Counted from the first letter of the stretch, positions 12,084 through 48,087 are shown. The stretch is DNA of 64,000 nucleotides from Rhodocyclaceae bacterium (GCA_047600765.1 JASGKF010000002.1:1226344-1290343); one strand, 5' to 3'. The notes: generated from the letters alone by a model not told the origin. Program-made: numbers and translations.

Positions 12084-12092
12084 GAGCGTCGA

Positions 12093-16658: not shown

Positions 16659-16669
16659 GTCTTTCCTTC

Positions 16670-20478: not shown

Positions 20479-20489
20479 AAGAATTCATC

Positions 20490-23518: not shown

Positions 23519-23549
23519 GCTCCGCGCTCGCTCCCCAACAAATTCTGCA

Positions 23550-28989: not shown

Positions 28990-29160
28990 ATGGAAGCGAT
29001 CATCATGCTCGCAGACATCCTGTGCATGCTGGCGTTGTGTCTCAGCCTGGTGCGCCTGAGCCGCGGAAAGACGAAAGATCTGGGGGTCTTCAAGTACAAG
29101 CTGGAAGAAGGCGAACAACAGCCCGAAGACTCCAGTCGCAAGGGGAGCGAGCGTGCGTGA
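28990..29160 (+). CDS. 56-aa small membrane protein (missed by the ORF track)
   Basis: MEAIIMLADILCMLALCLSLVRLSRGKTKDLGVFKYKLEEGEQQPEDSSRKGSERA*; exactly fills the gap between the GT4 and the ligase, and its stop overlaps the GTG at 29153. Confidence 0.7.
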   Translation: MEAIIMLADILCMLALCLSLVRLSRGKTKDLGVFKYKLEEGEQQPEDSSRKGSERA

Positions 29161-32464: not shown

Positions 32465-33414
32465 AGGCTTTCGTGAGATGGCTGGTCTGGCAGTCTGGAT
32501 TGCTGGCCTTGTATCACCGCCTGCGCAATCGGCGCAGCCTGACGATTGCGCAGTTCCACCGTGTGTTGCCAGCCGGGTCAGAGGAGTGGAAACACAGCGA
32601 GCAGGAGTATGCGCTGACGCGTGAAGAGTTCGCGCTGTGCCTGCAGTTCTTCCGCAAGCATTACAACGTCGTGTCGCTATCGCAGGTGCTCGCAGCCGGT
32701 CAGGGCCAAGAGGCGTTGCCGGACAGGGCCTTGCTGATCAGCTTTGATGACGGTTGGTGCGACAACCGCACGCATGCCGAGCCCTTGCTGCGACAACACG
32801 GCATGCGTGCCACGATGTTCGTCAACGTCGAGGCGATGCAACAGACGGACAAGCGCTGGTGGCAGGACGCCCTGGTCGAGATTTTTGCAGGTGGTCGTGC
32901 TGCTGAAGCCTTGCCGCAGTTGGGCAGTGCGCCGCGCTTCTACGATGCCATCGTGCACATGCTGGAGACGCCACTGGATGAGCGCCTCGGCAAGCTGCAA
33001 AACGCGTTGCGCTATGTGCCGACCGAGCGGCAGATGCTGACGGCGGCCGAGCTAGCAACGCTGGACCGGGATGTGTGGGATATCGGCTCACATGCGCGTA
33101 CGCATGCGCCGCTGACTTTTCTTACTGATCCGCGTGAAGAGCTGGGCAGTGCAGCAGCGCAGATTGCGGCCTGGATCGGACAGACCGTGGCATGCATCGC
33201 GTTTCCGCACGGGCGGTACTCGGCCGAGATCGTCGGGCAGTGCCATGCCGATGGTCTGGCTGTCATGTCCAGTGACGCGCGTCTGAATCACGCCGACGCA
33301 TTGCCGCTCGTGATGGGGCGTATCAACATTGATCCCGGTGTTGTCGGGCGGAGCAAGGCTGCGGCAGCGCGCGAGCTGGCCTATACGCTGATGCGTCGCG
33401 ATTTCCAGGCCTGA
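32461..33414 (+). CDS. Polysaccharide deacetylase family protein
   Basis: LISFDDGWCDN, IGSHARTHAPL, IAFPHGRY; ATG 32461 overlaps the upstream stop (ATGA). Confidence 0.85.
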   Translation: MKAFVRWLVWQSGLLALYHRLRNRRSLTIAQFHRVLPAGSEEWKHSEQEYALTREEFALCLQFFRKHYNVVSLSQVLAAGQGQEALPDRALLISFDDGWCDNRTHAEPLLRQHGMRATMFVNVEAMQQTDKRWWQDALVEIFAGGRAAEALPQLGSAPRFYDAIVHMLETPLDERLGKLQNALRYVPTERQMLTAAELATLDRDVWDIGSHARTHAPLTFLTDPREELGSAAAQIAAWIGQTVACIAFPHGRYSAEIVGQCHADGLAVMSSDARLNHADALPLVMGRINIDPGVVGRSKAAAARELAYTLMRRDFQA

Positions 33415-35973: not shown

Positions 35974-37209
35974 TCAAACCAGCACTTCCGGAATGGCCGG
36001 ATGCGACAGGAATGTCGCAGGGCTGGCCGTCAGGCCATAGGCGCCGGACTGCAGCACCACCAGCAGATCACCGATCTCCGCTGGAGGCAGTTCGAGGTCG
36101 GTGCCGAGAATGTCCAGCGGGGTGCACAGCGGGCCGACGGCATTGTATCGATGCTCTGTGACAGCACTGGCCTTGTTGCCCAGAAGAGCCGGGTAATTCT
36201 TGCGGATGACCTGGCCGAAGTTGCCACTGGCGGCGAGGTGGTGGTGCAAGCCACCGTCGGTGATGAGGTAGGTCGTGCCACGCGAGACCTTGATGTCCTG
36301 TACGCGGCAGACGTAGACGCCCGCTTCGGCGACGAGGTAGCGGCCCAGTTCGAGCACCAGACGCGCTGTCGGGTGAGCCTGGGCGAGTTGTGCGTCGAGC
36401 GCATGCAGGTGCTGGCCAATGGGGGCGATGTCGAGGCGTGCTTCACCGGGGAAGTAGGGCACGCCGAAACCGCCACCGAGGTTGAGTGTGCGCAGCGGTG
36501 CGGGGGCATCGGCGGCGAGACGCATGGCGAGCTCGAAGCTTTTTGACTGTGCTTCGATGATGGCGTCGGCTTGCAAGTTCTGGCTGCCAGCGAAGAGGTG
36601 AAAACCTTCGAATTGCATGCCCAGTGAAGCGAGCTGTGCAAGCGCGGCGGGAATGCGTTCGGCGTCGATGCCGAAGGGCTTGGGGCCGCCACCCATCTTC
36701 ATGCCCGAGCTCTTGAGTTCGAAGTCCGGATTGACGCGCAGCGCGACGCGCGCTGGCAGCCCCAGTGCTTGCGAGGCTTCGGCAATGCGTACGAGTTCGG
36801 TTTCGGATTCGACATTGAGCAGCACGCCGGCTGCGATGGCCTGGCGCAGTTCGGCCGGGCGCTTGCCGGGGCCGGCGAAGCTGATTTCTGCTGCGGCCAT
36901 ACCACTGTCCAGCGCGGCGCGCATTTCACCTGCGGAGGCGACATCGAGTCCATCGACGAGTTTTGCCATGTACGCCAGCAGCGCGGGCATCGGGTTGGCC
37001 TTGATGGCGTAGTGCAGGCTGACGCGCGCGGGAAGCACTGCTTTCAGCGAGGCCACGCGTTCGCTAATGGCGGAGCGGTCATAAGCGTAGAACGGTGTCT
37101 GGCCGACGCGCTCGGCGAGGCGGGAGAGCGGGATGCCGCCGATGAGCAGTTCGCCATCCTGTTGCGGGAATTGCGTCAGCGGCGCGTGCCTGGGGGGCGT
37201 GGCGTTCAT
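35974..37209 (-). CDS. PLP-dependent decarboxylase, exosortase A-associated (fold-type III, BtrK/DAP decarboxylase-like)
   Basis: HYAIKANP (PLP Lys), SFAGPGK, HLFAGSQ, NLGGGFG, ELGRYLV, GPLCTPLD, GAYG. Confidence 0.9.
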   Translation of the reverse strand: MNATPPRHAPLTQFPQQDGELLIGGIPLSRLAERVGQTPFYAYDRSAISERVASLKAVLPARVSLHYAIKANPMPALLAYMAKLVDGLDVASAGEMRAALDSGMAAAEISFAGPGKRPAELRQAIAAGVLLNVESETELVRIAEASQALGLPARVALRVNPDFELKSSGMKMGGGPKPFGIDAERIPAALAQLASLGMQFEGFHLFAGSQNLQADAIIEAQSKSFELAMRLAADAPAPLRTLNLGGGFGVPYFPGEARLDIAPIGQHLHALDAQLAQAHPTARLVLELGRYLVAEAGVYVCRVQDIKVSRGTTYLITDGGLHHHLAASGNFGQVIRKNYPALLGNKASAVTEHRYNAVGPLCTPLDILGTDLELPPAEIGDLLVVLQSGAYGLTASPATFLSHPAIPEVLV

Positions 37210-38768
37210 GCGGGGCTCCCGGTCGAGGGCTGCGTGCTTTGTGCCAGCAGCGTGCGGTCGATCTTGCCGTTCGGATTGCGCGGCAGGCTGTCAGTTTGCA
37301 GGCGGATGTCGGCAGGCAGCATCCACGCAGGTAGCTCGGGGCGCAGCGCAGCGAGCAGGGCTTCGTTGGTGAGCGCGGCATCAAGAGCCTGCGCGACGAT
37401 GGTGATGGTCTGCCCCAGCGCGGGATGCGGCACACCAAAGGCTGCGACTTCGCGCAGCAGGCCGGTTGCGAGGCAGGCGTCTTCGATTTCGTTGGGACTC
37501 ACGCGGTAGCCGGAGGTCTTGATCATTTCGTCACGACGTCCGATGAAGTAGAGAAAGCCGTCGGCATCGCGGCGCACGGTGTCGCCCGAGAAGACGGCGA
37601 TCTCGGCACGTGTCTGGCCTTCACGCAGTGGCAGCGGGCGATAGCGTTCGGCGGTCTTCTCCGTGTCGTTCCAGTAGCCCAGCGCGACCAGTGCGCCGCG
37701 CTGTACGAGTTCGCCGGGTTCGTCGGCAGCACACTCGCTACCATCTGCGCGCAGCACCATGACTTCGGCATTCGGGATGGCCTTGCCAATGGAGTCCGGA
37801 CGGCGGTCAACTTCTTCAGGCGGCAGGTAGGTGGCGCGGAAGGCCTCGGTGAGGCCGTACATGAGGAAGGGCTTGGCCACTGGCGCGCGTTGGCGCAGCG
37901 CGGCGAGCGTCTCGCGCGGCATGCGGCCACCGGTGCTGGCGAAGTAGCGCAGCGGGGCGACGGCGTCGGCGGGCCAGTCGAGCGCGGCGAGCTGCGTCCA
38001 CAGCGGCGGCACGGCAGTGAGGCCGGTGATCTGGTCGCGTGCCATGGCGCGCAGCACATCGCGTGGCAGCAGGTAGTTGAGCAGGCTGACGCTGGCACCC
38101 ACGCTGAAGGCTGTGGTGAGCTGCGAGAAGCCCGCATCGAAAGACAGTGGCAGGGCTGCGAGCAGACGGTCTTCAGCGTGATTGCCGAGATAGCTGGCGA
38201 CGCTGCGCGCGCCGACGACCAGATTGCGGTGCGAGACCATCACGCCCTTGGGGCGGCCAGTGCTGCCCGAGGTATAGAAGATGCAGGCGAGGTCTTCGTC
38301 AATGACGCGATGGGCGTTGGCAACAGGTTCGGTGTAGCGGGCTTGCCAGGCTGCTGCGTCGTCACTGTCGACGACCAGTGTGTCACGCAATGCCGGGCAG
38401 TCCGCCAGCAAGGGCTGCAGCAAAGGCAAACGCGCAGCGGTGGTGACCAGCATGCTGACGCTGCAGTCCTGCAGGATGTGGGCGACCTGGGCGGGCTTGA
38501 GCTGCGGATTGACCGGCACGAATACCGCACCGGCACGGCTGGCGGCGAAGGCGCTGATGACGAACTCCGGGCGCTTCTCCATCCAGATGGCAACCCGTTC
38601 GCCGCGTGCGAGGCCCTGGCGCAGCAGGCTGGCAGCCAGGCCTTCGATGTTTGCAGCGAGCCCGGCATAGTGCATTGCCTGGCCGCCATCGATCAGTGCC
38701 GTGGCGTCTGGTGCGCGCTGTGCCGCGTGCAAGGGCAAGTCGTGCAGCAGGAAGGCGGTGGCGCTCAT
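37206..38768 (-). CDS. AMP-forming acyl/aminoacyl ligase, exosortase A-associated
   Basis: YTSGSTGRPKGV, LMYGLTEAFR, SGDTVRRDADGFLYFIGRRDEMIKTSGYRVSP, NGKIDR; start MSATAF at 38768. Confidence 0.9.
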   Translation of the reverse strand: MSATAFLLHDLPLHAAQRAPDATALIDGGQAMHYAGLAANIEGLAASLLRQGLARGERVAIWMEKRPEFVISAFAASRAGAVFVPVNPQLKPAQVAHILQDCSVSMLVTTAARLPLLQPLLADCPALRDTLVVDSDDAAAWQARYTEPVANAHRVIDEDLACIFYTSGSTGRPKGVMVSHRNLVVGARSVASYLGNHAEDRLLAALPLSFDAGFSQLTTAFSVGASVSLLNYLLPRDVLRAMARDQITGLTAVPPLWTQLAALDWPADAVAPLRYFASTGGRMPRETLAALRQRAPVAKPFLMYGLTEAFRATYLPPEEVDRRPDSIGKAIPNAEVMVLRADGSECAADEPGELVQRGALVALGYWNDTEKTAERYRPLPLREGQTRAEIAVFSGDTVRRDADGFLYFIGRRDEMIKTSGYRVSPNEIEDACLATGLLREVAAFGVPHPALGQTITIVAQALDAALTNEALLAALRPELPAWMLPADIRLQTDSLPRNPNGKIDRTLLAQSTQPSTGSPA

Positions 38769-39757
38769 GAGGGGTTGCGGATCCTTGCTTTCAGCCAGCG
38801 CGGGATGAAGTGTCGTGCCGCGCGCAGTTTGCCGCCCAGCGAATGGCGGTCGAATGCGAGCAAGGCAACCAGCGCGCGACGATGCGTCATCCACTCTGAC
38901 TTGTAGGCATCGTCACCGGTCAGGAAGTCGATTTCCGTCACGCCGTCGATAGACATGACATGTTCGAACAGGGCTGCCGTGAGGACGGTGCCAACGCCCA
39001 GTCTGGCAAAGCGCGCATCGTAAGCGAGTTTATAGATGGAGGCCGTCTGATTCTTCACGAACCACACCTGAGCGGCGGCAGGTTCGCCCTGAACATGGAG
39101 CACGGCCAGGCGTAGGCTGCCCTGTGCGGCAGTCATGCGGCACAGGCCGGGTATGAAGTCGGGGAATGGCTCAGCCTCCTTCCAGCTGGAGGCATAGACA
39201 CGCTGGAATGCGGCTAGTCCCTCGTTGAATCCGGAGCCTGCCTGCAGGATGAAGTCGATACGGAAACCGGGCGTTTCCTTGAGCTTGCTGTGGCATCTGC
39301 GCAGGGTGTTGCGCAGTCGAGAGGGGCGCTCGGCGAGGTAGCTTTGCCAGCTGAGACCAGCGCAGGGAAGGTACCAGTTGGTGCTGACAGGCAGCAGATC
39401 TGTCGAGAAATCGGCTGATAGTGCCTGTATCAACGCCGGCAACCAGGGAGCATCCTCGCGCAGGGGGCGCAAAATGACTTGCTGCGGGGACTGCGCGCGC
39501 AGGTTCTGCACGAATGCAGGCAGAGTGTCTGCGCAGGGCTGCAGGCCGTCTTCAAAGCCAAAGTCTGGACTGTAGAAATTGCTGCAGGATTCCAGCCCTC
39601 CCGAGCCCCGCATCAAGTGCATGCGCAGTCCGGCAGCTGCGATCAGAACGGGGTGCGCGTCAGGCGGCAGGCCTTTTTGCTGAAGGAGCTCGAACCAGTC
39701 CCGGCCAAGGAACAGCGAACTGCTGCCGGCTTGTCCAGGCAGGGTCGGGCAATTCAT
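38765..39757 (-). CDS. GNAT acyltransferase (Acetyltransf_6/FemAB-like)
   Basis: SNFYSP, LRNTLRR, VYASSWKEAE, YKLAYD, EIDFLTGDDAYKSEWM; probable start MNCPTL at 39757. Confidence 0.8.
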   Translation of the reverse strand: MNCPTLPGQAGSSSLFLGRDWFELLQQKGLPPDAHPVLIAAAGLRMHLMRGSGGLESCSNFYSPDFGFEDGLQPCADTLPAFVQNLRAQSPQQVILRPLREDAPWLPALIQALSADFSTDLLPVSTNWYLPCAGLSWQSYLAERPSRLRNTLRRCHSKLKETPGFRIDFILQAGSGFNEGLAAFQRVYASSWKEAEPFPDFIPGLCRMTAAQGSLRLAVLHVQGEPAAAQVWFVKNQTASIYKLAYDARFARLGVGTVLTAALFEHVMSIDGVTEIDFLTGDDAYKSEWMTHRRALVALLAFDRHSLGGKLRAARHFIPRWLKARIRNPS

Positions 39758-41421
39758 CAGGTCGGCTTTCGAGGGGCTGACGGTGTCGCGCCAATCCTGG
39801 GCGGGGCCTTGTCTGTCTGGCAGACATAAAGTGCTATGCCGCGGTCGATCAACTCCATGCGACAACGATCTTTGAGATAGCGGCTGAACTCCGGATAGTG
39901 ATCCGGGCTGAAGGTCACGGCATCGCCTGAACCCAAGGGGCGGCCGGAAATGTCCACGATGAAGCGCGGGGGCTTGTCCTCCAGATCCTTCATGAAGCGC
40001 TGCCAGATGCCGGGCTTGACAATGCGCAAGCGTGCGGCGGGATCCATGCCCGGGGTGTATTCGGCGAACGTGCCTTGGAGATGATCGGTCAGGAGTACCT
40101 TGGACGCGCCAATCAGGCGAGTGGTGATGAAGTAATCAGGGGCATACCCCCAGACATAAAGCCGGTCATCAGCTTGCGACAGGGCGTTGATACGCATCGT
40201 GATCGGTGATTGCGTCGGTGGAGTCGAACCACTCAGCAGCTGTTTGACAATGGGGGTGCCCGCGGCGACCGCGCTTGAAATGATGGCCAGCGCCCCTGTG
40301 CAGAGCGCAATCCGTCGGAGGATGAGGCTCTCCTGCTGCAGGCAGAACTGGATGAAATAGCCACCCGCCAGTGCCAACGCCGGAAAAGTGAAGAGGTAGT
40401 AGGCCGGATAGTATTCGCGCCCCAGGCTGACGGCGGCAAAGGCGCCGAGCAGGGAAACGAGCAGGAAGCTGCGGACGGGCAGGCTTTGCCCGCTTGCTGT
40501 TGGGTTGGTCCGGTGGCCTGCCGTGGCTAGCACACCCAGCACTGCGAGTAGCCAGCATAGCGGGGCGAGGCGACTGTACTCTTCGGTCGCCGTTACAAAC
40601 CGCATGAGGCGTCGGGATAGTGGGGTGGTGTCCACCGTGGCATAACGGGAGGGGTACTCCAGCGTCTGGTAGATCAGGTCTTCGAGTCCGCCCGCCGCGC
40701 TGAAGTACAGGGCTGCCATGGCAAGAGGCAGAGCGAGTCCGCCAGCGTATGACAGTGCGGTGTGCAGGGTGCTGCGTAGTCTCCGGCCGTTTGTGTATGC
40801 AGCAAGACATAGAACAGACATGCCGGCGGCGGCTAGAACCGCTGGTTGCTTGAACAGCATCGCGACGCCGGTTAGCGCTCCGGCTCCGGCGAAGCCCGCA
40901 TAAGAGACGCGTTTGGCCGAACGCAGCATCAGCCACAAAGCAAGACTCAAGGGCAGGGCTGCAAGTTGCTCGGTCTTGACGGCAATGAAACGCGGATCGC
41001 CTGTTCCCAGCAGCAGGAAAAGAATGCACGCCCAGATGCCCGCCTGGCGCCCCCCCAACTCTGACGCCGCCAGAAAAATGGCGCCTGCGGTCAGGAATAC
41101 CCACAGCATGCCGAAGGCGTGAATGGCTTGCATGTTGTAGTCGCCGAACAGGCTGAAGACCACCTGGTAGATCAGGAAGACGCCGGGGGGCTTGTTGTCG
41201 ATGCAGGCAAGCAGGGGGCCGCTATGTTCTGCAATGGCTCGCATGGCGCAAGCAGCGAAAAAACTTTCGTCTACATTGAGTGAGCCCGCCGTCAGATAGT
41301 GGGCACGAATGCCGAACTGGCAGACGAGTACGGCGGCAAGACACAACCAGGAAAACGCGGCAAGCTGGTTGGCGGGGTTCCTGCGGAAAGCGTCGACAAT
41401 TCTTGGGAACATGTCCGGCAT
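39757..41421 (-). CDS. GT-C-fold (ArnT/PMT_2-like) membrane glycosyltransferase
   Basis: LNVDESFF, DNKPPG, LFKQPA, many TM segments and a soluble C-terminal domain; start at 41421 or 41412. Confidence 0.75.
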   Translation of the reverse strand: MPDMFPRIVDAFRRNPANQLAAFSWLCLAAVLVCQFGIRAHYLTAGSLNVDESFFAACAMRAIAEHSGPLLACIDNKPPGVFLIYQVVFSLFGDYNMQAIHAFGMLWVFLTAGAIFLAASELGGRQAGIWACILFLLLGTGDPRFIAVKTEQLAALPLSLALWLMLRSAKRVSYAGFAGAGALTGVAMLFKQPAVLAAAGMSVLCLAAYTNGRRLRSTLHTALSYAGGLALPLAMAALYFSAAGGLEDLIYQTLEYPSRYATVDTTPLSRRLMRFVTATEEYSRLAPLCWLLAVLGVLATAGHRTNPTASGQSLPVRSFLLVSLLGAFAAVSLGREYYPAYYLFTFPALALAGGYFIQFCLQQESLILRRIALCTGALAIISSAVAAGTPIVKQLLSGSTPPTQSPITMRINALSQADDRLYVWGYAPDYFITTRLIGASKVLLTDHLQGTFAEYTPGMDPAARLRIVKPGIWQRFMKDLEDKPPRFIVDISGRPLGSGDAVTFSPDHYPEFSRYLKDRCRMELIDRGIALYVCQTDKAPPRIGATPSAPRKPT

Positions 41422-41560
41422 GATTCCTGGGGCTGGTAGTGGGGCGTGCTTGGGACCGTCTGCAGGACGTGCTTCCCGAGACCGGTGGATATAATACCGG
41501 ACTGGAATTAGTGAACTGCTCGTGGCCTTGTCTGGCTGCGGCGCATTGAGGAAGCCTGGT

Positions 41561-41809
41561 TTGGATATTCGCAAGGAACTGGCGGTGGTGCTGGACGACG
41601 TGCTGGGGCTGAAGGGCCGTGCACAAGGTTTCGTTGACAGCACGCCGCTGCTGGGGGCGCTGCCCGAGCTCGATTCGATGGCGGTTGTGGGCATCATTGC
41701 CGGTATCGAAGAGCATTTCGGGGTGTATCTCGCCGATGATGAAATCGATGGCAGCAGCTTTGAGACTTTCGGCAGCCTGCTCAAACTGGTGCAGGACAAG
41801 ATTGGCTGA
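41561..41809 (+). CDS. Acyl carrier protein, exosortase A-associated
   Basis: 82-aa acidic protein with PELDSMAVV (phosphopantetheine Ser); probable TTG start at 41561. Confidence 0.9.
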   Translation: MDIRKELAVVLDDVLGLKGRAQGFVDSTPLLGALPELDSMAVVGIIAGIEEHFGVYLADDEIDGSSFETFGSLLKLVQDKIG

Positions 41810-41818
41810 CCGGCCCTG

Positions 41819-42658
41819 ATGGAACCCTTCTACCTCCCCACACCGGAAGGGCGCATTTACGGATTGCATCTTCCCGCTGGCGGTACGCCTCGGGGGGCGT
41901 TGTTGTGGCTGCCGCCGTTCGCCGAAGAGGCGCACTGCGCACGTCGCCATCTGGTCGCGGCAGCGCGGGAGTGCCAAGCCGAAGGTTTCTCCAGCCTGTT
42001 GATTGATCCATTGGGTACGGGGGAGAGCGACGGTGACTTCTCCAGCGCAAGCTGGGAAATCTGGTGCCGTCATGTGGGCCTCGCTGCGAGCTGGTTGCGT
42101 GAGCGGGTGCCGGCTCCGCTGTGGCTGGCTGGATTGCGTGCAGGCAATCTGCTGGCGGCCGATGTCGCAGCGCAGGTGATGCCGGCGGGGTTGCTGTGCT
42201 GGCAGCCCGCGATGGATGGCCGGACGGTGCTGGACGGTTTCCTGCGACTCAAACTGGCGTCGACCTGGGCGGCAGATGCGGGTGGAAGTTCTGGAAGCAA
42301 TGCCGCCAGCATCCTCGCTGATTTGCGTGACGAACTTGCTGCTGGTCGAAGTGTGGATGTCGCAGGCTTTACGCTCTCAGCCGAACTGGCCGGTGTGCTG
42401 GCATCGCGTGGCATGTCCTGGGCGCTTGATTGCGCCCCGCGACTGGCTTGTCTTGAATTCCGGTCTCGCCAGACAGATGGTGTGCTGCCTCCGCATTCAC
42501 CGGGCTTGGCGCGACAGCGTGACAACTGGCGTTCGCAGGGAGTGCAGGTACTCAGCCAGGTCGTGGAGGCACCGCAATTCTGGTTGCAGCATGAGGCGCC
42601 GCTGACACCAGGGTTAGGGCGCGCCAGCGCAGCCTTGATCGGGAAGCTGGAAGCATGA
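41819..42658 (+). CDS. Alpha/beta hydrolase 2, exosortase A-associated
   Basis: LPPFAEEAHCARR, DPLGTGESDGDF; elbow reads GLRAG (no Ser); LRLKLA motif. Confidence 0.85.
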   Translation: MEPFYLPTPEGRIYGLHLPAGGTPRGALLWLPPFAEEAHCARRHLVAAARECQAEGFSSLLIDPLGTGESDGDFSSASWEIWCRHVGLAASWLRERVPAPLWLAGLRAGNLLAADVAAQVMPAGLLCWQPAMDGRTVLDGFLRLKLASTWAADAGGSSGSNAASILADLRDELAAGRSVDVAGFTLSAELAGVLASRGMSWALDCAPRLACLEFRSRQTDGVLPPHSPGLARQRDNWRSQGVQVLSQVVEAPQFWLQHEAPLTPGLGRASAALIGKLEA

Positions 42659-43512
42659 CGCTGGCCACGAGTTTTCCCCTCGTCATTCCGCTTGGTCAGA
42701 AACATGCGCCGCGACTGGTGGGCACCGTGCATCCGCCGGCGGGTGAGCCTCGTGGGCCCGGCGTTGTATTCGTGACGGGTGGCATGCAGACGCGGGCGGG
42801 CAGTCATCGCGGCTTCATTTCGCTGGCGCGTGTGCTTGCCGCCAGTGGCTTTCCCGTTTTGCGTTTCGATCTGCCCGGATTGGGCGACGCCGAAGGCGAG
42901 ATGCGTGACTTCGCAGACAATACGGATGTCATCCACGCTGCTACGGATGCCTTGATCTCGGCCGTACCGGGTATGGATCGGGTGGTGCTGTGGGGCCTGT
43001 GTGATGGTGCCAGCGCAGCGGCCCTGTTCGTGCGTGAAGAGTCGCGCGTAGCCGGGCTCTTTCTCGTCAATCCCTGGTTGCTGTCGGAACAGGCGCAAGC
43101 CCGTGCGATGTCAGGCTATTACAGGCAACGTTTCCTGTCGCCAGAGTTCTGGCGCAAGCTGCTTGGCGGCCAGGTGGATGTCACCGGAGCTTTGCGTGGC
43201 TACGTCATGAACTGGTGGTGTGCGAAGGGGGATTCTGACCCAGCACAGCCTGCTGCTCAGGCCGGCAGGGTTCAACCCTTGTCTGCACGTGTGCTGCAGG
43301 CGCTGGAATCTTTTGACGGCAAGCTGCAGCTTGTCGTGTCGGGACAAGACCTGACTGGGCAAGCTTTCGTAGCGGCAGCTGCTGGTCGCAGTTTGTCACT
43401 CATACAGGTCGGGGACGCCGATCACACCTTTTCGTCCATCGCAGCACAACAGCAACTCGAAGTGCTGAGCCAGCAGTTCCTGGAGTCGTTCTGCCCGGAC
43501 CGCGCGCCCTGA
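42655..43512 (+). CDS. Alpha/beta hydrolase 1, exosortase A-associated
   Basis: GGMQTRAGSHR, RFDLPGLGDAEG, elbow WGLCDGAS (Cys), VNPW, DLTG, ADHTFS. Confidence 0.85.
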   Translation: MTLATSFPLVIPLGQKHAPRLVGTVHPPAGEPRGPGVVFVTGGMQTRAGSHRGFISLARVLAASGFPVLRFDLPGLGDAEGEMRDFADNTDVIHAATDALISAVPGMDRVVLWGLCDGASAAALFVREESRVAGLFLVNPWLLSEQAQARAMSGYYRQRFLSPEFWRKLLGGQVDVTGALRGYVMNWWCAKGDSDPAQPAAQAGRVQPLSARVLQALESFDGKLQLVVSGQDLTGQAFVAAAAGRSLSLIQVGDADHTFSSIAAQQQLEVLSQQFLESFCPDRAP

Positions 43513-43518
43513 GGCGAG

Positions 43519-43884
43519 TCAGCTGCGGGCGACGACAAAGACGCCCGCGCAGATCAGCGCGACGCCGAGCAGTCTTTGTGGCGTGACCTGTTCGCCCATC
43601 ATGAAACCGACGGCGGCAGTGAAGAAGAAACCGAGTCCTACCAGCGGGTAGGCCTTGCTGACATCCCACTTCGACAACACGGCGAGCCATACCATCGCCC
43701 CCAGTGCGTAGAGTGCGAGCCCACCGAACACGTACTTGTCGAAGAGCACGGCGAAGACGGTGCGGATCGTGAAGGGCTCGGCCAGCGTAGCTTTGAGTGC
43801 TGCACCGGACATGCCAGCCTTCAGCGAGAACTGCGCGGCGACCGAGAAGAGGATGCTGACGACGGCGATGATGAGGGTTTTCAT
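43519..43884 (-). CDS. EamA/SMR-like 4-TM protein, ArnE/ArnF-type lipid-linked sugar flippase candidate
   Basis: 121 aa with four TM helices; AQFSLK, WLAVLSKWDVSKAYPLVGLG. Confidence 0.75.
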   Translation of the reverse strand: MKTLIIAVVSILFSVAAQFSLKAGMSGAALKATLAEPFTIRTVFAVLFDKYVFGGLALYALGAMVWLAVLSKWDVSKAYPLVGLGFFFTAAVGFMMGEQVTPQRLLGVALICAGVFVVARS

Positions 43885-43907
43885 TGTTCTTGTTGCGGAG
43901 CCGGGCC

Positions 43908-45509
43908 TCAGCGCTGCGACTTGATCGTGTGGTTGATGATGGGCAGATCGATGCTTTGCTCGCGCGGGCCCGTGGCAACCGGGCCGAGATTTTCGTAGAT
44001 CACGAGCTCTTTTTCGTGTGCCGGGTAGTTGGCTGGTGTGTCGAAACGCGCCACCTGCTTGAACTGGGGGCTTGCAATGACACGTTCGAAGCGTTGCATG
44101 GCGGCCAGATCGTTCCAGAATCCGGGCTGCACAACGAGGTATTTCACCCCGAGTTTGTTGAGCTGATCAGAAATATCGGCTTCACTCAGTGGCTTTTCTT
44201 CAACGCCCAGCGCACGTCGTACAGCAACGCGCAGCAGGATCTTGTCAGCGCGCACGACAGTAAGGTCGCGACGGTCTTCGCGTTCACGCATGTTGAAGAC
44301 GAAGGAACCATCGCGGTAGCCCGAGAACAGTACGGCGCTGTCGCGCGGAGCGTGGTGAGCGATCCAGTCCGCGACCTGTGCGTAGCCTTCGACCTTGAGC
44401 ACCGGACGGAAGAACACCGTTTGCACGATGACGGCGATGCCCAGTGCGGCGAGCGCGGCGATCGCCAGTGTCTGTCGTGGCAAACGCGTCAGCAGGAAAA
44501 CTGCGAAGGCCACTACGGGGGGGAGAATGAACACGCTATGGCGTGCTTCCTTTAGGTCGATGGCCGAGAAAAACAGATAACCGATGCCGAACCAGGCTAG
44601 CCAGAACAGGGCGTCACCACGCTGCACGTCGTCGCGCGGGAGCCAACGCATTGCGAGCAAGCCGCCACAGGCCGCGATAAGCACGGGCCAACCGAGTTGG
44701 TCAGGCAGTTGCTTGAAATACCACAGCCAGCCGGCGAGGCTGCGACGCGAAACCTCGGCATCGGCAATGCCGCTGACCGACTGCACGTTGGCCTGACCGA
44801 ACTTGAGCGTCAGTACCACGAGGGGCACCAGCGCGAGCACTGCTGCAATGGCGATCAGCCACAGCTTGTAGTCGCGCAGCGTGCGCCAGCCACGGTCATG
44901 CAGCAGGCACAGCAGGTAAACCGGCGCGAGGAAGGCGGCCGTGATCTTGGTGTACATCGCTGCGACCAGCAGAAAGATGGCGAGCGTCAGATGCAGGGTG
45001 CGGCCTTCGCGGCGGTAGTGCATGAAGCAGACGGCGCTCCAGATCAGGAAGGCGAGCGAAGGCACTTCCAGCATGATCTGGCGACCCCAGAACGTGATCT
45101 CGGGTGCGCACACCAGCAGGGCCGCGGCGAGCCCGGCCTGCGTGGCCGGCAGCCAGAAGCGGAACAGTTTCCAGCAACCCCAGGCGAAGGCCATGTAGTG
45201 CAGGCAGACGACCAGCAAGGCTGTTTCGTGCGAAACGCCGAAGAGGGCGTAGAACGGCGCGCTGAGCACATAGAACAGCGGCGGATAGAACAGGATGGTC
45301 AGCGCCGGGTACTGCGCGTAGTAAGCGTAGGCGAAGCCGGACGGATCGCGCCAGGGCATGGCCAGCACGAGATCCTTTACGAAGACGCCGTTGAGCGCGT
45401 GGCGCGGTGCATCGCTCCAGTAAAAGGCGCCGTCGTGGGGGGCGCCGAGGAAGAGCAGGGCGGTGCCGACAAGCAGCAGGGCAAGTACGAGGCGGGGATG
45501 GAGGTTCAT
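43908..45509 (-). CDS. GT-C-fold (GT39/ArnT-like) membrane glycosyltransferase
   Basis: FYWSDAPRH, FYPPLFY, IMLEVP, YTKITA, many TM segments and a C-terminal periplasmic domain. Confidence 0.75.
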   Translation of the reverse strand: MNLHPRLVLALLLVGTALLFLGAPHDGAFYWSDAPRHALNGVFVKDLVLAMPWRDPSGFAYAYYAQYPALTILFYPPLFYVLSAPFYALFGVSHETALLVVCLHYMAFAWGCWKLFRFWLPATQAGLAAALLVCAPEITFWGRQIMLEVPSLAFLIWSAVCFMHYRREGRTLHLTLAIFLLVAAMYTKITAAFLAPVYLLCLLHDRGWRTLRDYKLWLIAIAAVLALVPLVVLTLKFGQANVQSVSGIADAEVSRRSLAGWLWYFKQLPDQLGWPVLIAACGGLLAMRWLPRDDVQRGDALFWLAWFGIGYLFFSAIDLKEARHSVFILPPVVAFAVFLLTRLPRQTLAIAALAALGIAVIVQTVFFRPVLKVEGYAQVADWIAHHAPRDSAVLFSGYRDGSFVFNMREREDRRDLTVVRADKILLRVAVRRALGVEEKPLSEADISDQLNKLGVKYLVVQPGFWNDLAAMQRFERVIASPQFKQVARFDTPANYPAHEKELVIYENLGPVATGPREQSIDLPIINHTIKSQR

Positions 45510-45521
45510 GGTATTCGTGCC

Positions 45522-46934
45522 TTACATCGCGACCAGTACGGTGATGGCTATGGCGACAAAGCTGGCCCAGCTGCCGCGGTCGCGCAGGCTGAAGACGATG
45601 GGGTCGTCATGCATCTGGCCGCGTGTGGTCTTCATCCACAGTCGCGAAATCCAGTACAGCATGAACGGGCAGAGCAGCCACAGTAGTTGTGGATGGCTGT
45701 AGTGGGAGGCGACGTAGGGTGAGTCAACATAGAGCGCCAGCACCAGCACCGACAGGTAGCCCGCTGACGCACCGAGGCTGATGACGGTCTGCAGGTCGCT
45801 GCGCCCGTAGTCGCGGCCCTTGGCGTGCTCGCGTTCGAGCTTCTCCATGGCGACCAGCTCGGAGGCGCGCTTGACCAGCGCGAGGCTGAGGAACACGAAC
45901 ATCGAGAACGCCAACAACCAGGATGACAGCGGCACGGCGATGGCGACAGCGCCGGCCATGATGCGTAGCGTGTAGAGCCCGGCGAGCAGCAGCACGTCGA
46001 TCAGCATGTAGGTCTTGAAGTACAGCGAGTACGACAGCGTGACGACGAGGTAACCCAGCAGTACGAGCAGGAAATTCGGTGAGACCCAGCACGCTGCAGT
46101 GATGCCGGCAGTCAGCAGGACAGTCATGACGATGATGCCGCTGGCGATGCCAATGTCGCCCGCTGCGAAAGGGCGGCGGCATTTGCGTGGGTGGCGGCGA
46201 TCGCTTGGCAGATCGAGCAGGTCGTTGAACATGTAGGTGGCTGAAGCGACCAGACCGAAGGCGAGGAAGGCAATGCTCACCGTGAGGAAGCTCTGTGCGG
46301 TGAAGGCATGCGAGGTGAGCAATGGCACGCCGATCAGCAGGTTCTTGAGCCACTGGTAGACGCGCGCCTCCTTGATCCAGGCACGCAGCGCAGCAGGGCG
46401 GTTTTCGAAGACGCGTTCGACTTCGCCACGCGTACGGGCGCCGGCTTCGACGCCGCTGTCGGGATTGACGACGATGGCCTTGCGCGACTTTTCCCAGATC
46501 GGGTAGTCGGCTGTGGCGTTACCGGCGTAGTCGAACACCGGGCCGACTTCGAGGATGGCCTTGAGCTTTTCGCTGCCACGCATGTTGCGTTCGCCATCGC
46601 TGGCGATGACGCCACGGAACAAGCCGACGCGTTCGGCGACAGGCTGCGCGAGGCGTGCGTCCGAGGCTGTGGCCAACCAGATTTCGCGCCCGCTTGCGGC
46701 TTCAGCCTGCAGGTATTCGACGAACTGTGCGTGCAGTGGCAGCGAATCCGATTCCAGCGTCACGCGGGAGGCAATCTGTGCCTTCAGGTGCGCCTTGCCA
46801 CGCAGCAGCCAGCCGATCATCGCGAACAGCATCCAGGGCTGCCGCTTGAGCAGTGCCAGCGCGCTCTCGACGAGCAGATCGGTCTTGATCAGGGTGCCGT
46901 CGAGGTCGACGAAGAGTGGAGGCTGGCCGGACAT
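45522..46934 (-). CDS. HAD-like domain fused to a UbiA-family polyprenyl-phosphate phosphoribosyltransferase
   Basis: N-terminal VDLDGTLIKTD (HAD motif I); C-terminal QWLKNLL, YMFNDLLDLPSDRRHPRKCRRPFAAG, KRASEL and MHDDPIVF, as in Rv3806c-type enzymes. Confidence 0.88.
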   Translation of the reverse strand: MSGQPPLFVDLDGTLIKTDLLVESALALLKRQPWMLFAMIGWLLRGKAHLKAQIASRVTLESDSLPLHAQFVEYLQAEAASGREIWLATASDARLAQPVAERVGLFRGVIASDGERNMRGSEKLKAILEVGPVFDYAGNATADYPIWEKSRKAIVVNPDSGVEAGARTRGEVERVFENRPAALRAWIKEARVYQWLKNLLIGVPLLTSHAFTAQSFLTVSIAFLAFGLVASATYMFNDLLDLPSDRRHPRKCRRPFAAGDIGIASGIIVMTVLLTAGITAACWVSPNFLLVLLGYLVVTLSYSLYFKTYMLIDVLLLAGLYTLRIMAGAVAIAVPLSSWLLAFSMFVFLSLALVKRASELVAMEKLEREHAKGRDYGRSDLQTVISLGASAGYLSVLVLALYVDSPYVASHYSHPQLLWLLCPFMLYWISRLWMKTTRGQMHDDPIVFSLRDRGSWASFVAIAITVLVAM

Positions 46935-47051: not shown

Positions 47052-48080
47052 CTACTTTGCCGGGACGGCGAAGAGGGGGGCGCTGGCGCGCGCCACGATG
47101 CCCGTGGTCAGCGCATTCCAGTGCTTGTCGTAGGGGGCGACCTCCAGCCGCAGGGCACTGGTCTTGTAGTGGGCTGCGAAGAGCGGCTCGGTGTCGACAA
47201 CGGGGACGCCAGCGCTGGCGGCAGCTGCCTTGAAGCGGCTCAGCACGCGCGAGCTGGGCGTGCGTCCCTCGTGGATCGCTTCGCGGTCGCTGTCCATGAC
47301 GAGGACGAAGCGGGTGTCAGGCATGGCCGCCAGTCCGGCAAAGAAGCGGCGGATGATCTCCTCGGCCGCCTTGTCGTCGATCTGGTCTTCCGGTGGCACG
47401 GATGCAGTGCGTGGAGCCGGCGCACTGCGCGGGGGGAACAACTGGCCCACCAGTGCTTCTGGTTTGATGCGCAGCTGCGAGAAGAGGTACTGCGCCAGCG
47501 CCGATTCGCGCACCAATGCCTTGAGCTTGCCAGCTGGCGCCTGCCTGTCGCTGCCGGGCTGCAGGGTGGTGGCGTCCAGGCAGGGGCCGTGCGTATTGCC
47601 GGAGCCACACAGCGTCTGCCTGACGTCGCTGCGCTCCACGACGATGAGGAATTTGCGGATGCCGAAGCGCTCCTGCGCAAAGCGTGCGCGGGCGAGGTAG
47701 TCAAACAGAGAGGAGCCGGGGCCACCCATGGAATACACGGGCGTCTGGTTCAACTGGTGTTCGAGCTGGCGGGACAGGCGCTCTTCCTCCGGCAGCATGT
47801 TGGCTTCGACGAAGCTGTCGCCGATGACGGCGACGGCGGTCGGATCACGCGTGAAATCGCGACTGTCGAGGAAGCCGACGTTGTTGCTGCGCAGATGTTG
47901 GGCGTTCTTCAGGTCCCAGCCGGATGACAGCGTGAAGCTGTGGTGTGCCGGGTAAGTGATGATGTCGGGCGCGAAGTGGTAGGCCGTGTGCGTGGCCGTC
48001 GAGACGGGCAGCAGCCTGCAGAGCAGCTCCAGCAGCAGCAAGGCAGTCATGACACCAGCGAGGAAGCGGAGGGCGCGCAT
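47052..48080 (-). CDS. SGNH-hydrolase-like (AlgJ/AlgX-type) periplasmic O-acyltransferase partner
   Basis: N-terminal TM helix, VIGDSFVEA (GDS) and DKHWN (DxH); directly downstream of the MBOAT gene. Confidence 0.75.
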   Translation of the reverse strand: MRALRFLAGVMTALLLLELLCRLLPVSTATHTAYHFAPDIITYPAHHSFTLSSGWDLKNAQHLRSNNVGFLDSRDFTRDPTAVAVIGDSFVEANMLPEEERLSRQLEHQLNQTPVYSMGGPGSSLFDYLARARFAQERFGIRKFLIVVERSDVRQTLCGSGNTHGPCLDATTLQPGSDRQAPAGKLKALVRESALAQYLFSQLRIKPEALVGQLFPPRSAPAPRTASVPPEDQIDDKAAEEIIRRFFAGLAAMPDTRFVLVMDSDREAIHEGRTPSSRVLSRFKAAAASAGVPVVDTEPLFAAHYKTSALRLEVAPYDKHWNALTTGIVARASAPLFAVPAK

Positions 48081-48087
48081 GCTGGTC

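What the first reader, a model, noticed from the sequence alone, without database searches (positions are those of the whole stretch)
35974..43512. Butirosin-like ACP-tethered amino-acyl tailoring pathway aimed at a polysaccharide
A stand-alone ACP (DSM), an adenylating ligase, a fold-type III PLP decarboxylase, a GNAT and two alpha/beta hydrolases cluster around a divergent promoter region next to the flippase. In butirosin synthesis BtrK, of the same fold, decarboxylates gamma-glutamyl-ACP to GABA-ACP. By analogy, the ligase loads a dicarboxylic amino acid, the decarboxylase makes an omega-aminoacyl-ACP (GABA or beta-alanyl), and the GNAT or Cys-hydrolase transfers it to the EPS or PEP-CTERM glycan. 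These families are catalogued as XrtA-associated, but I know of no established chemistry for them.
Basis: partly seen in the sequence, partly recalled or inferred. Interest (0 to 1): 0.75.

Follow-up and report, generated by a model that had tools for sequence, protein, structure and literature searches.

The report
Carrier-bound beta-alanyl/GABA module, exosortase locus
Next to a slime-polysaccharide and exosortase A locus, a conserved gene set most likely hooks aspartate (or glutamate) by its side chain onto a small carrier protein, removes CO2 there to leave an amine-ended beta-alanyl (or GABA) group, and hands it to an unknown acceptor; the gene families are catalogued, but I found no published chemistry for them.

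Summary
They are a carrier protein (ACP), an adenylating ligase (TIGR03098), a PLP decarboxylase (TIGR03099), a GNAT and two alpha/beta-hydrolase-fold proteins (TIGR03101, TIGR03100), inside a canonical XrtA/PEP-CTERM polysaccharide locus.

The homology is sharper than "same fold". The decarboxylase's best solved relative is BtrK (39% identity), and a tree puts it on BtrK's side, away from lysine-pathway enzymes. The ligase's best single-domain match is VinN, which loads aspartate-type substrates by the side-chain carboxylate. The ligase keeps VinN's Asp230 and Arg331 equivalents.

Ligase and decarboxylase are adjacent in nearly all of 80 related loci. ACP, hydrolase 2 and hydrolase 1 form a second conserved operon. 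Hydrolase 1 has an invariant Cys-Asp-His triad. Hydrolase 2 has an invariant Arg at the nucleophile position and no His.

Most likely the product is carrier-bound beta-alanyl (less likely GABA) for a surface polymer. The acceptor is unknown, and nothing here was tested biochemically.

This scan has already noted the same module in at least 29 other genomes. I found no paper on its chemistry.

The parts
35974..37209 (-). PLP-dependent fold-type III decarboxylase (TIGR03099), BtrK-like; predicted to decarboxylate the carrier-bound amino acid
   Evidence: NCBIfam gives 616.5 bits against a cut-off of 478. Pfam finds Orn_Arg_deC_N and Orn_DAP_Arg_deC. The best PDB hit is BtrK (7ru7), E 1.8e-74, 39% identity over 379 aa. 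It shares the DGG-HHH-AAS...R-NYP loop with BtrK where DAPDC has NDLIRP. In the tree it groups with BtrK and apart from LysA. The genome has a separate lysA on contig C1.
37206..38768 (-). ANL adenylating ligase (TIGR03098), VinN-like; predicted to load Asp (or Glu) by its side-chain carboxylate onto the ACP
   Evidence: NCBIfam gives 734 bits against a cut-off of 592. The best single-domain PDB hit is VinN (3wvn) at 214.6 bits; LgrA's higher total is the sum of two domains, 149.5 and 122.4 bits. In the pocket-only search VinN scores 46.7 bits and the next hit 28. The motifs SFD[AY]G and TEAFR[SA]T are near-invariant in 72 orthologues. The start overlaps the GNAT stop and the stop overlaps the decarboxylase start, both as ATGA.
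38765..39757 (-). GNAT-fold acyltransferase (Pfam Acetyltransf_6, FemAB/CelD-like); accessory candidate transferase
   Evidence: Pfam PF13480, E 7e-28. It has no NCBIfam hit and no PDB hit. It is found next to the ligase in about 12 of 80 loci. It has no significant pairwise similarity to the locus's TIGR03019 FemAB protein.
39757..41421 (-). GT-C (PMT_2, ArnT/PMT-like) membrane glycosyltransferase; first gene of the minus-strand operon, specific to this genome
   Evidence: Pfam PMT_2, E 1.5e-12. The ATG at 41421 has an AGGA ribosome-binding site, and its stop overlaps the GNAT start. It is not found near the module in the 80 other loci.
41422..41560 (.). 139-bp divergent intergenic region between the two operons
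   Evidence: Read directly from the sequence. It contains a TATAAT near 41491. The consensus scan found no full promoter or terminator.
41561..41809 (+). Stand-alone carrier protein (ACP), 82 aa, phosphopantetheine site in LDSMA
   Evidence: The DSM motif is present in all 42 orthologues examined. The best PDB hit is 2lki at 58 bits; VinL and HitD are only weak hits. The TTG start sits behind AGGAAG, and orthologues are typically 82-83 aa. The genome has three phosphopantetheinyl-transferase domain genes.
41819..42658 (+). Hydrolase 2 (TIGR03101): alpha/beta-hydrolase fold without nucleophile or His; invariant Arg107 in the nucleophile elbow; predicted non-catalytic partner
   Evidence: NCBIfam gives 195 bits, just under the 202.75 cut-off. 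GLRAG aligns with the GLSMG of esterases. Arg107, E36, E37, R42 and R143 are invariant in 19 orthologues, and no His is conserved. The AF2 model has pLDDT 92.4 and an alpha/beta-hydrolase fold.
42655..43512 (+). Hydrolase 1 (TIGR03100): alpha/beta-hydrolase fold with an invariant Cys116-Asp232-His257 triad; predicted thioester-forming acyl (aminoacyl) transferase
   Evidence: NCBIfam gives 236 bits against a cut-off of 168. GLCDG aligns with the GLSMG nucleophile elbow. C116, D232 and H257 are invariant in 16 orthologues. The AF2 model has pLDDT 85.5, and its nearest folds are capped esterases, lipases and the trans-acting thioesterase DcsB. The start overlaps the hydrolase 2 stop as ATGA.

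Best explanation
This is a thiotemplated amino-acyl tailoring module of the XrtA/PEP-CTERM exopolysaccharide system.

Steps 1-3 are inferred from close homology:
1. One of the genome's phosphopantetheinyl transferases converts the 82-aa ACP to its holo form.
2. The TIGR03098 ligase adenylates the side-chain carboxylate of an acidic amino acid and thioesterifies it to the ACP. L-aspartate is favoured (about 55%), then L-glutamate (about 25%), then another acidic amino acid (about 20%).
3. The TIGR03099 PLP decarboxylase removes the still-free alpha-carboxylate while the substrate stays on the carrier. This gives beta-alanyl-S-ACP, or 4-aminobutyryl-S-ACP if glutamate is loaded.

Steps 4-5 rest on anatomy only:
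4. Hydrolase 1 takes the amino-acyl group onto its invariant Cys as a thioester and passes it to a hydroxyl or amine of a cytoplasmic acceptor. The most plausible acceptor is a lipid-linked sugar or repeat unit. Hydrolase 2 has no nucleophile and carries an invariant Arg; it would act as a non-catalytic partner. The GNAT is an optional second N-acyl transferase.
5. The decorated unit is flipped (Wzx, or here the ArnE/F-like protein) and built into the surface polymer, giving it a free primary amine.
For: - Family membership: ligase 734 bits, decarboxylase 616 bits and hydrolase 1 236 bits, all above the curated cut-offs.
- Decarboxylase: BtrK is the best solved relative at 254.7 bits, against 160.5 or less for DAPDCs. 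The two share a loop signature that DAPDC lacks, are 39% identical, and lie together across a 100/100 split from LysA/DAPDC. A separate lysA exists elsewhere in the genome. CtaF and VinO, decarboxylases doing the same job in other pathways, act only on carrier-bound substrate (PMC7183216, PMC11284099).
- Ligase: it has the A-domain FD motif rather than the acyl-CoA-type motif. VinN is the best single-domain hit overall and by a wide margin in the pocket region. VinN D230 aligns with an invariant D, R331 with an invariant R, and S299 with T.
- Gene linkage: the ligase lies immediately upstream of the decarboxylase in nearly all 80 loci, and here their codons overlap. ACP-hydrolase 2-hydrolase 1 is a conserved operon.
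- Hydrolases: hydrolase 1 has an invariant Cys-Asp-His triad. Hydrolase 2 has an invariant Arg at the nucleophile position.
- Co-occurrence in a 151-genome class sample: all 15 genomes with hydrolase 1 also have the decarboxylase (split over two contigs in G133), and 14 of the 15 have XrtA.
- Location: the N-termini of the five module proteins and the GNAT show no signal peptide by eye, so the chemistry is cytoplasmic.
Against: - Nothing biochemical was tested. Substrate, product and acceptor all rest on homology.
- VinN's Lys330 is Phe here and Phe231 is Ala or Tyr, so the pocket is not identical to VinN's.
- The role I assign to Ser299, Lys330 and Arg331 in VinN comes from my memory of Miyanaga et al. 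2014. That paper could not be opened.
- The ACP is only weakly similar to VinL (E 0.36).
- Fold searches for both hydrolases return only generic capped esterases.
- Ligase-decarboxylase pairs without hydrolases occur in genomes with no XrtA hit (G001, G068; in G150 the decarboxylase lies alone). The front half of the pathway is therefore not tied to exosortase.
- No acceptor-specific gene is conserved with the module.
Confidence: 0.62

Rival explanations
1. The carrier chemistry is the same, but the product is not a polysaccharide decoration. Instead, the amine-ended acyl group is put on a lipid, a lipid-linked sugar or the polymer specifically to serve as the nucleophile to which exosortase A attaches cleaved PEP-CTERM proteins. 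Alternatively, it is oligomerised on the carrier, as CtaD/CtaF make tri-beta-alanine, or released as a small molecule.
For: - The complete module, with hydrolase 1, is almost confined to XrtA genomes: 14 of 15.
- XrtA loci also carry a FemAB-family protein (TIGR03019). FemAB enzymes build the amine-ended bridge that sortase uses in Gram-positive bacteria (established knowledge).
- Iterative loading and decarboxylation on one carrier is documented for CtaD/CtaF (PMC7183216).
Against: - No evidence here bears on what XrtA uses as acceptor.
- Only about half of the XrtA genomes in the sample have the decarboxylase (13-14 of 27). It therefore cannot be the universal acceptor pathway.
- There is no second condensing enzyme of the VinM or CtaG type in the module.
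Confidence: 0.17
2. The ligase loads a diamino-dicarboxylic or longer acidic amino acid (for example diaminopimelate or alpha-aminoadipate), and the decarboxylase trims the distal alpha-amino acid end. The result is a lysyl-like or longer omega-aminoacyl carrier thioester rather than beta-alanyl or GABA.
For: - The decarboxylase descends from the DAPDC branch of the fold (TIGR01048 lysA model 249 bits; PMC7857480 places BtrK with the DAPDCs).
- The pocket differs from VinN at two of the five mapped positions.
- The invariant Arg could bind any distal carboxylate.
Against: - The loop that binds the distal end of DAP in DAPDC (NDLIRP) is replaced by the BtrK-type loop.
- In the pocket region the ligase's best match is the Asp-type enzyme VinN.
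Confidence: 0.1
3. This is ordinary metabolism with no carrier chemistry. The ligase is a fatty-acyl or organic-acid CoA ligase, as its catalogue name says. The decarboxylase works on a free amino acid (DAP, Orn or Lys) to make a diamine or lysine. The two hydrolases are esterases or proofreading thioesterases.
For: - The NCBIfam name is 'acyl-CoA ligase'.
- The long-chain fatty-acid-CoA ligase models score up to 294 bits.
- The structural neighbours of both hydrolases are esterases and lipases.
Against: - All CoA-ligase models score far below their cut-offs.
- The ligase has the FD amino-group motif, and its best solved relatives are carrier-loading adenylation enzymes.
- A dedicated ACP gene is conserved with the set.
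- The decarboxylase groups with BtrK rather than LysA, and lysA is present elsewhere in the genome.
- Hydrolase 2 has neither nucleophile nor His. Hydrolase 1 uses Cys, which is unusual for a simple esterase.
Confidence: 0.06

Closest known systems
VinN / VinL / VinO of vicenistatin biosynthesis, and the parallel FlvN / FlvL / FlvO of fluvirucin B2 (PMC11284099)
   Same: The triad is the same: a stand-alone ANL adenylation enzyme, a stand-alone ACP and a PLP decarboxylase that acts on the carrier-bound aspartate-type substrate. VinN is the ligase's best single-domain solved relative (214.6 bits) and clearly the best in the pocket region. The Asp230 and Arg331 equivalents are invariant, and Ser299 aligns with Thr.
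   Different: - The context is an exopolysaccharide/exosortase locus of Proteobacteria, not an actinomycete polyketide cluster.
- There is no VinM (second adenylation enzyme), no VinK (acyltransferase) and no PKS.
- VinN Lys330 is Phe and Phe231 is Ala or Tyr here.
- The ACP is only weakly similar to VinL (E 0.36).
- The downstream partners are a Cys alpha/beta-hydrolase and an Arg-bearing dead paralogue, which have no counterpart in the macrolactam pathways.
- VinO itself could not be compared, because no sequence was available.
BtrI / BtrJ / BtrK of butirosin biosynthesis (Bacillus circulans)
   Same: BtrK, the L-glutamyl-[BtrI] decarboxylase, is the decarboxylase's best solved relative: E 1.8e-74 and 39% identity. 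They share a loop signature and a tree position. The logic is the same: side-chain tethering, then alpha-decarboxylation on the carrier.
   Different: - The ligase is ANL-type, not a BtrJ ATP-grasp.
- No papain-like BtrH transferase, BtrG cyclotransferase or BtrO/V monooxygenase was seen among the window's annotated genes.
- The ligase pocket points to Asp rather than Glu.
CtaD / CtaE / CtaF of closthioamide biosynthesis (PMC7183216)
   Same: Aspartate is tethered by its side chain to a carrier protein. It is then decarboxylated to beta-alanyl by a fold-type III PLP enzyme that cannot use the free amino acid. A Cys-His-Asp enzyme (CtaG) off-loads carrier thioesters.
   Different: - CtaD is an ATP-grasp enzyme and works iteratively.
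- CtaG has a papain-like fold, whereas hydrolase 1 has an alpha/beta-hydrolase fold.
DltA / DltC / DltB / DltD D-alanylation of teichoic acids
   Same: The system logic is the same: an ANL ligase loads an amino acid onto a small carrier protein so as to put a free amine on a cell-surface polymer. A DltB-like MBOAT (163 bits) and an AlgX-like SGNH protein lie 3.5-6 kb away in this window.
   Different: - There is no decarboxylation in Dlt.
- The MBOAT accompanies the module in only 3 of 80 loci, so it is not part of it. It is more likely an AlgI/AlgJ-type O-acetylation pair.
- The hydrolases here are cytoplasmic.
SyrC / CmaE aminoacyl-shuttling transferases (recalled from memory, not compared here)
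   Same: They are alpha/beta-hydrolase-fold enzymes with a Cys in the GxCxG nucleophile elbow. They carry aminoacyl groups as thioesters between carrier proteins. This is the mechanistic precedent for hydrolase 1.
   Different: SyrC and CmaE deliver to another carrier domain of an NRPS, and no such domain is present here.

Membership tests
TIGR03099 (pyridoxal-dependent decarboxylase, exosortase A system-associated) | Score above the curated cut-off over the full model | tested here: met
   616.5 bits against 478.45, covering model positions 1-398
TIGR03099 (pyridoxal-dependent decarboxylase, exosortase A system-associated) | Adjacent to a TIGR03098 ligase, in a genome with exosortase A | tested here: met
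   The ligase stop overlaps the decarboxylase start. XrtA lies at 18925-20478, 338.6 bits against a cut-off of 208.
TIGR03098 (AMP-forming ligase, exosortase A system-associated) | Score above the curated cut-off | tested here: met
   734.2 bits against 592.35
TIGR03100 (hydrolase 1, exosortase A system-associated) | Score above the cut-off, with the family's Cys-Asp-His residues | tested here: met
   236 bits against 168.45. C116, D232 and H257 are invariant in 16 orthologues.
TIGR03101 (hydrolase 2, exosortase A system-associated) | Score above the curated cut-off | tested here: not met
   195.0 bits against 202.75. However, the gene sits in the orthologous position (ACP-hydrolase 2-hydrolase 1) and carries the family's G-x-R-x-G elbow and FAEE motif. 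I treat it as a divergent orthologue.
BtrK-type carrier-protein-dependent decarboxylases | Fold-type III PLP enzyme that is closer to BtrK than to diaminopimelate decarboxylases | tested here: met
   254.7 bits against 160.5, a shared HHH-AAS loop and a 100/100 split from LysA/DAPDC (BtrK sits on a long branch).
BtrK-type carrier-protein-dependent decarboxylases | Acts on aminoacyl-S-carrier protein and not on the free amino acid | not testable with these tools
   This needs an enzyme assay with loaded holo-ACP.
VinN-type (side-chain or beta-amino-acid) adenylation enzymes | A-domain core with an Asp that binds the substrate amine (VinN Asp230) | tested here: met
   SFDAG aligns with VinN SWDFG. 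The Asp is invariant in 72 orthologues.
VinN-type (side-chain or beta-amino-acid) adenylation enzymes | Pocket residues that hold the substrate's free carboxylate (VinN Ser299, Lys330, Arg331; roles recalled from Miyanaga 2014) | tested here: inconclusive
   Arg331 aligns with an invariant Arg, Ser299 with Thr, and Lys330 with Phe. The paper could not be read.
VinN-type (side-chain or beta-amino-acid) adenylation enzymes | Loads a stand-alone ACP encoded nearby | tested here: inconclusive
   An ACP gene is conserved with the ligase. Loading itself was not tested.
Butirosin side-chain pathway as a whole | ATP-grasp ligase (BtrJ) and papain-like transferase (BtrH) | tested here: not met
   The ligase is ANL-type. 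None of the window genes annotated is an ATP-grasp or papain-like protein.
Dlt-type D-alanylation system | An MBOAT (DltB) and DltD that consistently accompany the ligase and carrier | tested here: not met
   The MBOAT lies near the module in 3 of 80 loci only.

The most novel reading that the evidence does not exclude
The amine-ended acyl group made by this module is the long-sought acceptor nucleophile of exosortase A. Beta-alanyl (or GABA) is installed on a lipid-linked sugar or on the polysaccharide. Its free amine then attacks the XrtA acyl-enzyme and covalently joins PEP-CTERM proteins to the matrix, much as the FemAB-built glycine bridge serves sortase. The Cys hydrolase and its Arg-bearing dead paralogue are the XrtA-specific installation machinery.
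Probability: 0.12. Interest if true: 0.85.

Novelty: new variant of a known kind. Interest (0 to 1): 0.55.

Why it matters
These families occur in thousands of environmental and wastewater bacteria: more than 8000 protein clusters match the decarboxylase. They have had catalogue names for years, yet I found no published function.

Reading them as a VinN/VinO- and BtrK-type carrier pathway turns "hypothetical equivalogs" into a defined prediction that can be tested at the bench: Asp or Glu is loaded on the ACP, followed by a 44-Da loss.

If correct, floc- and biofilm-forming bacteria put a primary amine on an otherwise acidic matrix polymer. That would affect charge, cross-linking, metal binding and possibly the covalent attachment of PEP-CTERM proteins, whose acceptor is still unknown.

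It would also move thiotemplated amino-acid decarboxylation, so far known from antibiotic pathways, into cell-surface glycan tailoring. And it would add an alpha/beta-hydrolase pair (a Cys enzyme plus a dead Arg paralogue) as a new kind of off-loading device.

Tried and rejected
- **Ligase-decarboxylase fusion.** Long open frames of 938 and 993 aa in two genomes suggested fusion proteins. The two genes are in different reading frames and the long frames are a high-GC artefact. Rejected.
- **Dlt-like export through the nearby MBOAT.** The MBOAT and its AlgX-like partner accompany the module in only 3 of 80 loci. Rejected as part of the module.
- **Glutamate mutase variant.** An earlier scan note reported a glutamate mutase inserted in the set. 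PF06368 was found in only 2 of 151 sampled genomes, neither of which has the decarboxylase. It could not be tested here.
- **GNAT as a paralogue of the locus's FemAB protein.** There is no significant pairwise similarity.
- **Fold searches of both hydrolase models.** Only generic capped esterases, lipases and thioesterases came back, with TM about 0.6. No functional lead.
- **Neighbour census for an acceptor gene.** The most frequent extra neighbours are a synthetase-only AsnB paralogue (17 of 48 loci), a TPR protein, a GT4-like protein, NodB-type deacetylases and a DegT-like protein. None is universal, and none identifies the acceptor.
- **More distant decarboxylase hits.** The G037 hit (264 bits) sits in what looks like an IucA/IucC-type siderophore operon (by eye, from N-terminal sequences). 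The G150 hit (504 bits) sits beside sugar-nucleotide genes with no ligase. Neither is informative for this module.

Full report
**Setting**

The window is a textbook exosortase A (XrtA)/PEP-CTERM exopolysaccharide locus of a betaproteobacterium. The decarboxylase is 90% identical to that of Viridibacterium curvum. NCBIfam identifies the following XrtA-system genes on the plus strand:

| Gene | Coordinates |
|---|---|
| Export protein | 9865-10503 |
| Chain-length determinant | 10545-12083 |
| Tyrosine autokinase | 12084-13049 |
| Outer-membrane protein, ATPase, deacetylase | not listed individually |
| FemAB-family protein | 16520-17719 |
| Glycosyltransferases | not listed individually |
| XrtA | 18925-20478 |
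| AsnB-type amidotransferase | 20433-22376 |
| O-antigen-ligase-like protein | 29060-30091 |

The finding lies at the distal end of this locus.

**Observation**

The minus strand carries four genes in a row:

- A GNAT of Pfam family Acetyltransf_6, 38765-39757.
- The TIGR03098 ligase, 37206-38768.
- The TIGR03099 decarboxylase, 35974-37209.

The three junctions between these genes are overlapping stop/start codons (TGATG, ATGA, ATGA). The Wzx flippase follows 66 nt later.

A 139-bp intergenic region (41422-41560) separates this operon from a second one on the plus strand:

- An 82-aa ACP, 41561-41809, with a TTG start behind AGGAAG and an LDSMA motif.
- Hydrolase 2 (TIGR03101), 41819-42658.
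- Hydrolase 1 (TIGR03100), 42655-43512, joined to hydrolase 2 by an ATGA overlap.

Hydrolase 2 scores 195 bits, just below its curated cut-off of 202.75. The other three catalogued families score well above theirs.

**The decarboxylase**

- Against all solved structures, the best hit is BtrK, the L-glutamyl-[BtrI carrier protein] decarboxylase of butirosin biosynthesis. It scores E 1.8e-74 and 254.7 bits. The best diaminopimelate decarboxylase reaches 160.5 bits.
- Identity to BtrK is 39% over 379 aligned residues.
- The alignment shows a loop shared with BtrK: DGGLHHHLAASGNFGQVIRKNYP here, DGGMHHHAASTFRGRSMRSNYP in BtrK. DAPDCs have the NDLIRP segment at this place. The loop is invariant or nearly so in 14 family members.
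- In a maximum-likelihood tree, a 100/100 split separates five LysA/DAPDC sequences, including this genome's own LysA, from a group holding all TIGR03099 members and BtrK. BtrK sits on a long branch, so only this split should be trusted.
- The genome has a separate lysA on contig C1, so this gene is not the lysine-pathway enzyme.

**The ligase**

- Its catalogue name is "acyl-CoA ligase", but the CoA-ligase models all score far below their cut-offs.
- It has the adenylation-domain motif SFDAG, carrying the Asp that binds a substrate amino group.
- In the PDB search the nominal top hit is LgrA at 274 bits. That is the sum of two adenylation domains (149.5 and 122.4 bits).
- The best single-domain hit is VinN (3wvn, 214.6 bits).
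- A search with only the pocket region (the A4-A5 motifs) puts VinN far ahead: 46.7 bits against 28 for the next hit.
- VinN loads (2S,3S)-3-methylaspartate, and weakly aspartate, onto the stand-alone ACP VinL. VinO then decarboxylates the carrier-bound substrate (PMC11284099).

The alignment maps the pocket as follows:

| VinN residue | Residue here |
|---|---|
| Asp230 | Asp |
| Phe231 | Ala (Tyr in other members) |
| Ser299 | Thr |
| Lys330 | Phe |
| Arg331 | Arg |

The Asp and the Arg are near-invariant in 72 orthologues, within the motifs SFD[AY]G and TEAFR[SA]T. The functional roles I give these VinN residues are from my memory of Miyanaga et al. 2014, which I could not open. The residue identities at these numbers agree with the alignment.

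A fold-type III decarboxylase must act on a free alpha-amino-alpha-carboxylate. The amino acid therefore has to be tethered through its side-chain carboxylate, as in the Vin, Flv, Btr and Cta systems (PMC11350588, PMC7183216). The VinN-like pocket favours aspartate, which would give beta-alanyl. Glutamate, which would give GABA, cannot be excluded, because no VinO, FlvO or CtaF sequence was available for comparison.

**Conservation of the gene set**

I fetched 80 related loci from beta- and gammaproteobacterial genomes.

- The ligase lies immediately upstream of the decarboxylase in virtually every locus where both can be seen.
- ACP-hydrolase 2-hydrolase 1 occurs in that order in about half of the loci, usually divergent from ligase-decarboxylase.
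- The GNAT accompanies the ligase in about 12 loci.
- The GT-C gene accompanies it in none.

A gene-cluster census of 48 high-GC loci gave these counts:

| Gene family | Loci (of 48) |
|---|---|
| Ligase | 46 |
| Decarboxylase | 44 |
| ACP | 22 |
| Hydrolase 2 | 21 |
| Hydrolase 1 | 20 |
| Synthetase-only AsnB paralogue, directly after the decarboxylase | 17 |
| TPR protein | 14 |
| GT4-like protein | 13 |

NodB-type deacetylases are embedded in the module in several loci, for example L064 and L077.

I also sampled 151 genomes evenly from the class.

- The decarboxylase is over its cut-off in 18 genomes, XrtA in 27, and both in 13.
- Hydrolase 1 is over its cut-off in 15. All 15 also have the decarboxylase (in G133 it is split over two contigs), and 14 of the 15 have XrtA.
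- The decarboxylase-positive genomes with no XrtA match over its cut-off and no hydrolase 1 (G001, G010, G068, G150) lack the back half of the module; G010 is 75% complete and has a sub-threshold exosortase hit. Their local gene content differs.

So the carrier chemistry (ligase and decarboxylase) is the portable front half. The hydrolase pair is the part tied to exosortase A. Related genomes are not independent, so these counts are descriptive only.

**The two hydrolases**

- Hydrolase 1 aligns its GLCDG with the GLSMG nucleophile elbow of solved esterases. In 16 orthologues Cys116, Asp232 (SGxD) and His257 (ADHTFS) are invariant.
- Hydrolase 2 aligns GLRAG at the same elbow. In 19 orthologues Arg107 is invariant, along with Glu36, Glu37, Arg42 and Arg143. 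No His is conserved where the triad His should be; the segment reads FWQTxE.
- Both fold confidently as capped alpha/beta hydrolases (pLDDT 85.5 and 92.4). Their structural neighbours are generic esterases, lipases and the trans-acting thioesterase DcsB, with TM about 0.6.
- The two are weak paralogues (E 1e-4).
- Neither has a signal peptide by eye.

A Cys nucleophile on this fold suits thioester-to-thioester transfer from a carrier protein. Known off-loading enzymes for such carriers use Cys: the papain-like CtaG and BtrH (PMC7183216) and, from memory, the alpha/beta-fold SyrC and CmaE. My reading is that hydrolase 1 is the transferase and hydrolase 2 a non-catalytic partner. This is inference from residues and synteny only.

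**What is specific to this genome**

The five-gene module sits inside a polyprenyl-phosphate-sugar cassette.

- The GT-C gene is translationally coupled to the GNAT-ligase-decarboxylase genes.
- On the other side lie an ArnE/F-like small flippase subunit (43519-43884), a second GT-C (43908-45509) and a HAD-UbiA phosphoribosyltransferase-like gene (45522-46934).

In this organism the acceptor could therefore be a lipid-linked pentose that is flipped and transferred in the periplasm. That idea rests on one genome.

A DltB-like MBOAT (48088-49566) with an AlgX-like partner (47052-48122) suggested a Dlt-type export route. It accompanies the module in only 3 of 80 loci, and is more simply an O-acetylation pair.

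The genome has three phosphopantetheinyl-transferase domain genes.

**Literature and earlier notes**

Full-text searches found no paper on the chemistry of these families. I combined exosortase or PEP-CTERM with carrier protein, decarboxylase or ligase, and also searched the phrase "exosortase A system-associated". The founding PEP-CTERM paper does not mention them.

The scan's own notebook holds at least 29 earlier notes on the same module in other genomes, with the same reading. These are AI notes, not independent evidence. They do mean that this window is one more member and not a first sighting.

**Verdict**

The "load by the side chain, decarboxylate on the carrier" core is well supported by specific homology and tight synteny (about 0.6-0.7). 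VinN/VinL/VinO is a closer template than butirosin.
- The product identity is moderately supported (Asp to beta-alanyl favoured).
- The transfer step and the acceptor are open.
- I rate it a new variant of a known kind of pathway, in an undescribed context. It is of moderate interest and directly testable.

Noticed in passing
window 43519-46934 (-) and 39757-41421 (-): A polyprenyl-phosphate-sugar cassette surrounds the module. It comprises an ArnE/F-like small flippase subunit, two GT-C (PMT_2) transferases and a HAD-UbiA (decaprenyl-phosphate phosphoribosyltransferase-like, PRK08238 at 638 bits) gene. One GT-C gene is translationally coupled to the GNAT-ligase-decarboxylase operon. This arrangement was not seen in the 80 related loci.
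   Followed up: partly
window 47052-49566 (-): An MBOAT (DltB model 163 bits, below cut-off) lies next to an AlgX-like SGNH protein. This is probably an AlgI/AlgJ-type O-acetylation pair. It lies near the module in only 3 of 80 loci.
   Followed up: yes
L003:11226-13058, L004:10019-11830, L077:10921-13056 and 14 further loci: An AsnB-like protein with only the synthetase domain (Pfam Asn_synthase, no glutaminase hit, no N-terminal Cys) sits directly after the decarboxylase in 17 of 48 loci. It could be an amide-bond-forming partner of the module. It is absent next to the module in this window; the best own-genome hit is 33% identical and about 915 kb away.
   Followed up: partly
L064:7283-8209, L077:3117-4088, L055:11322-12233, L016:11299-12258; window 30455-33414: NodB-type polysaccharide deacetylase genes are embedded in or abut the module in several genomes. 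In this window there is a deacetylase-GT2 fusion and a second deacetylase about 3 kb away. De-N-acetylation would expose a sugar amine that could accept the amino-acyl group.
   Followed up: no
G037:C28:33157-34293 (L094:10104-11336): A more distant relative of the decarboxylase (264 bits) lies after a protein that looks IucA/IucC-like and beside a likely transporter, judged by eye from N-terminal sequences. That arrangement looks like a siderophore (SbnH/FigC-type) decarboxylase, not a carrier-protein one.
   Followed up: partly
G001 (L084:5375-8684): A ligase-decarboxylase pair (55% and 61% identical to the window's) lies beside an SrfB 'virulence factor' gene. No ACP or hydrolases occur within 16 kb, and the genome has no XrtA hit. 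The front half of the pathway therefore exists outside exosortase loci.
   Followed up: partly
window 23478-25235 (+): A 585-aa open reading frame inside the EPS operon has no NCBIfam or Pfam match. Its codon-position GC pattern looks like a real gene.
   Followed up: no
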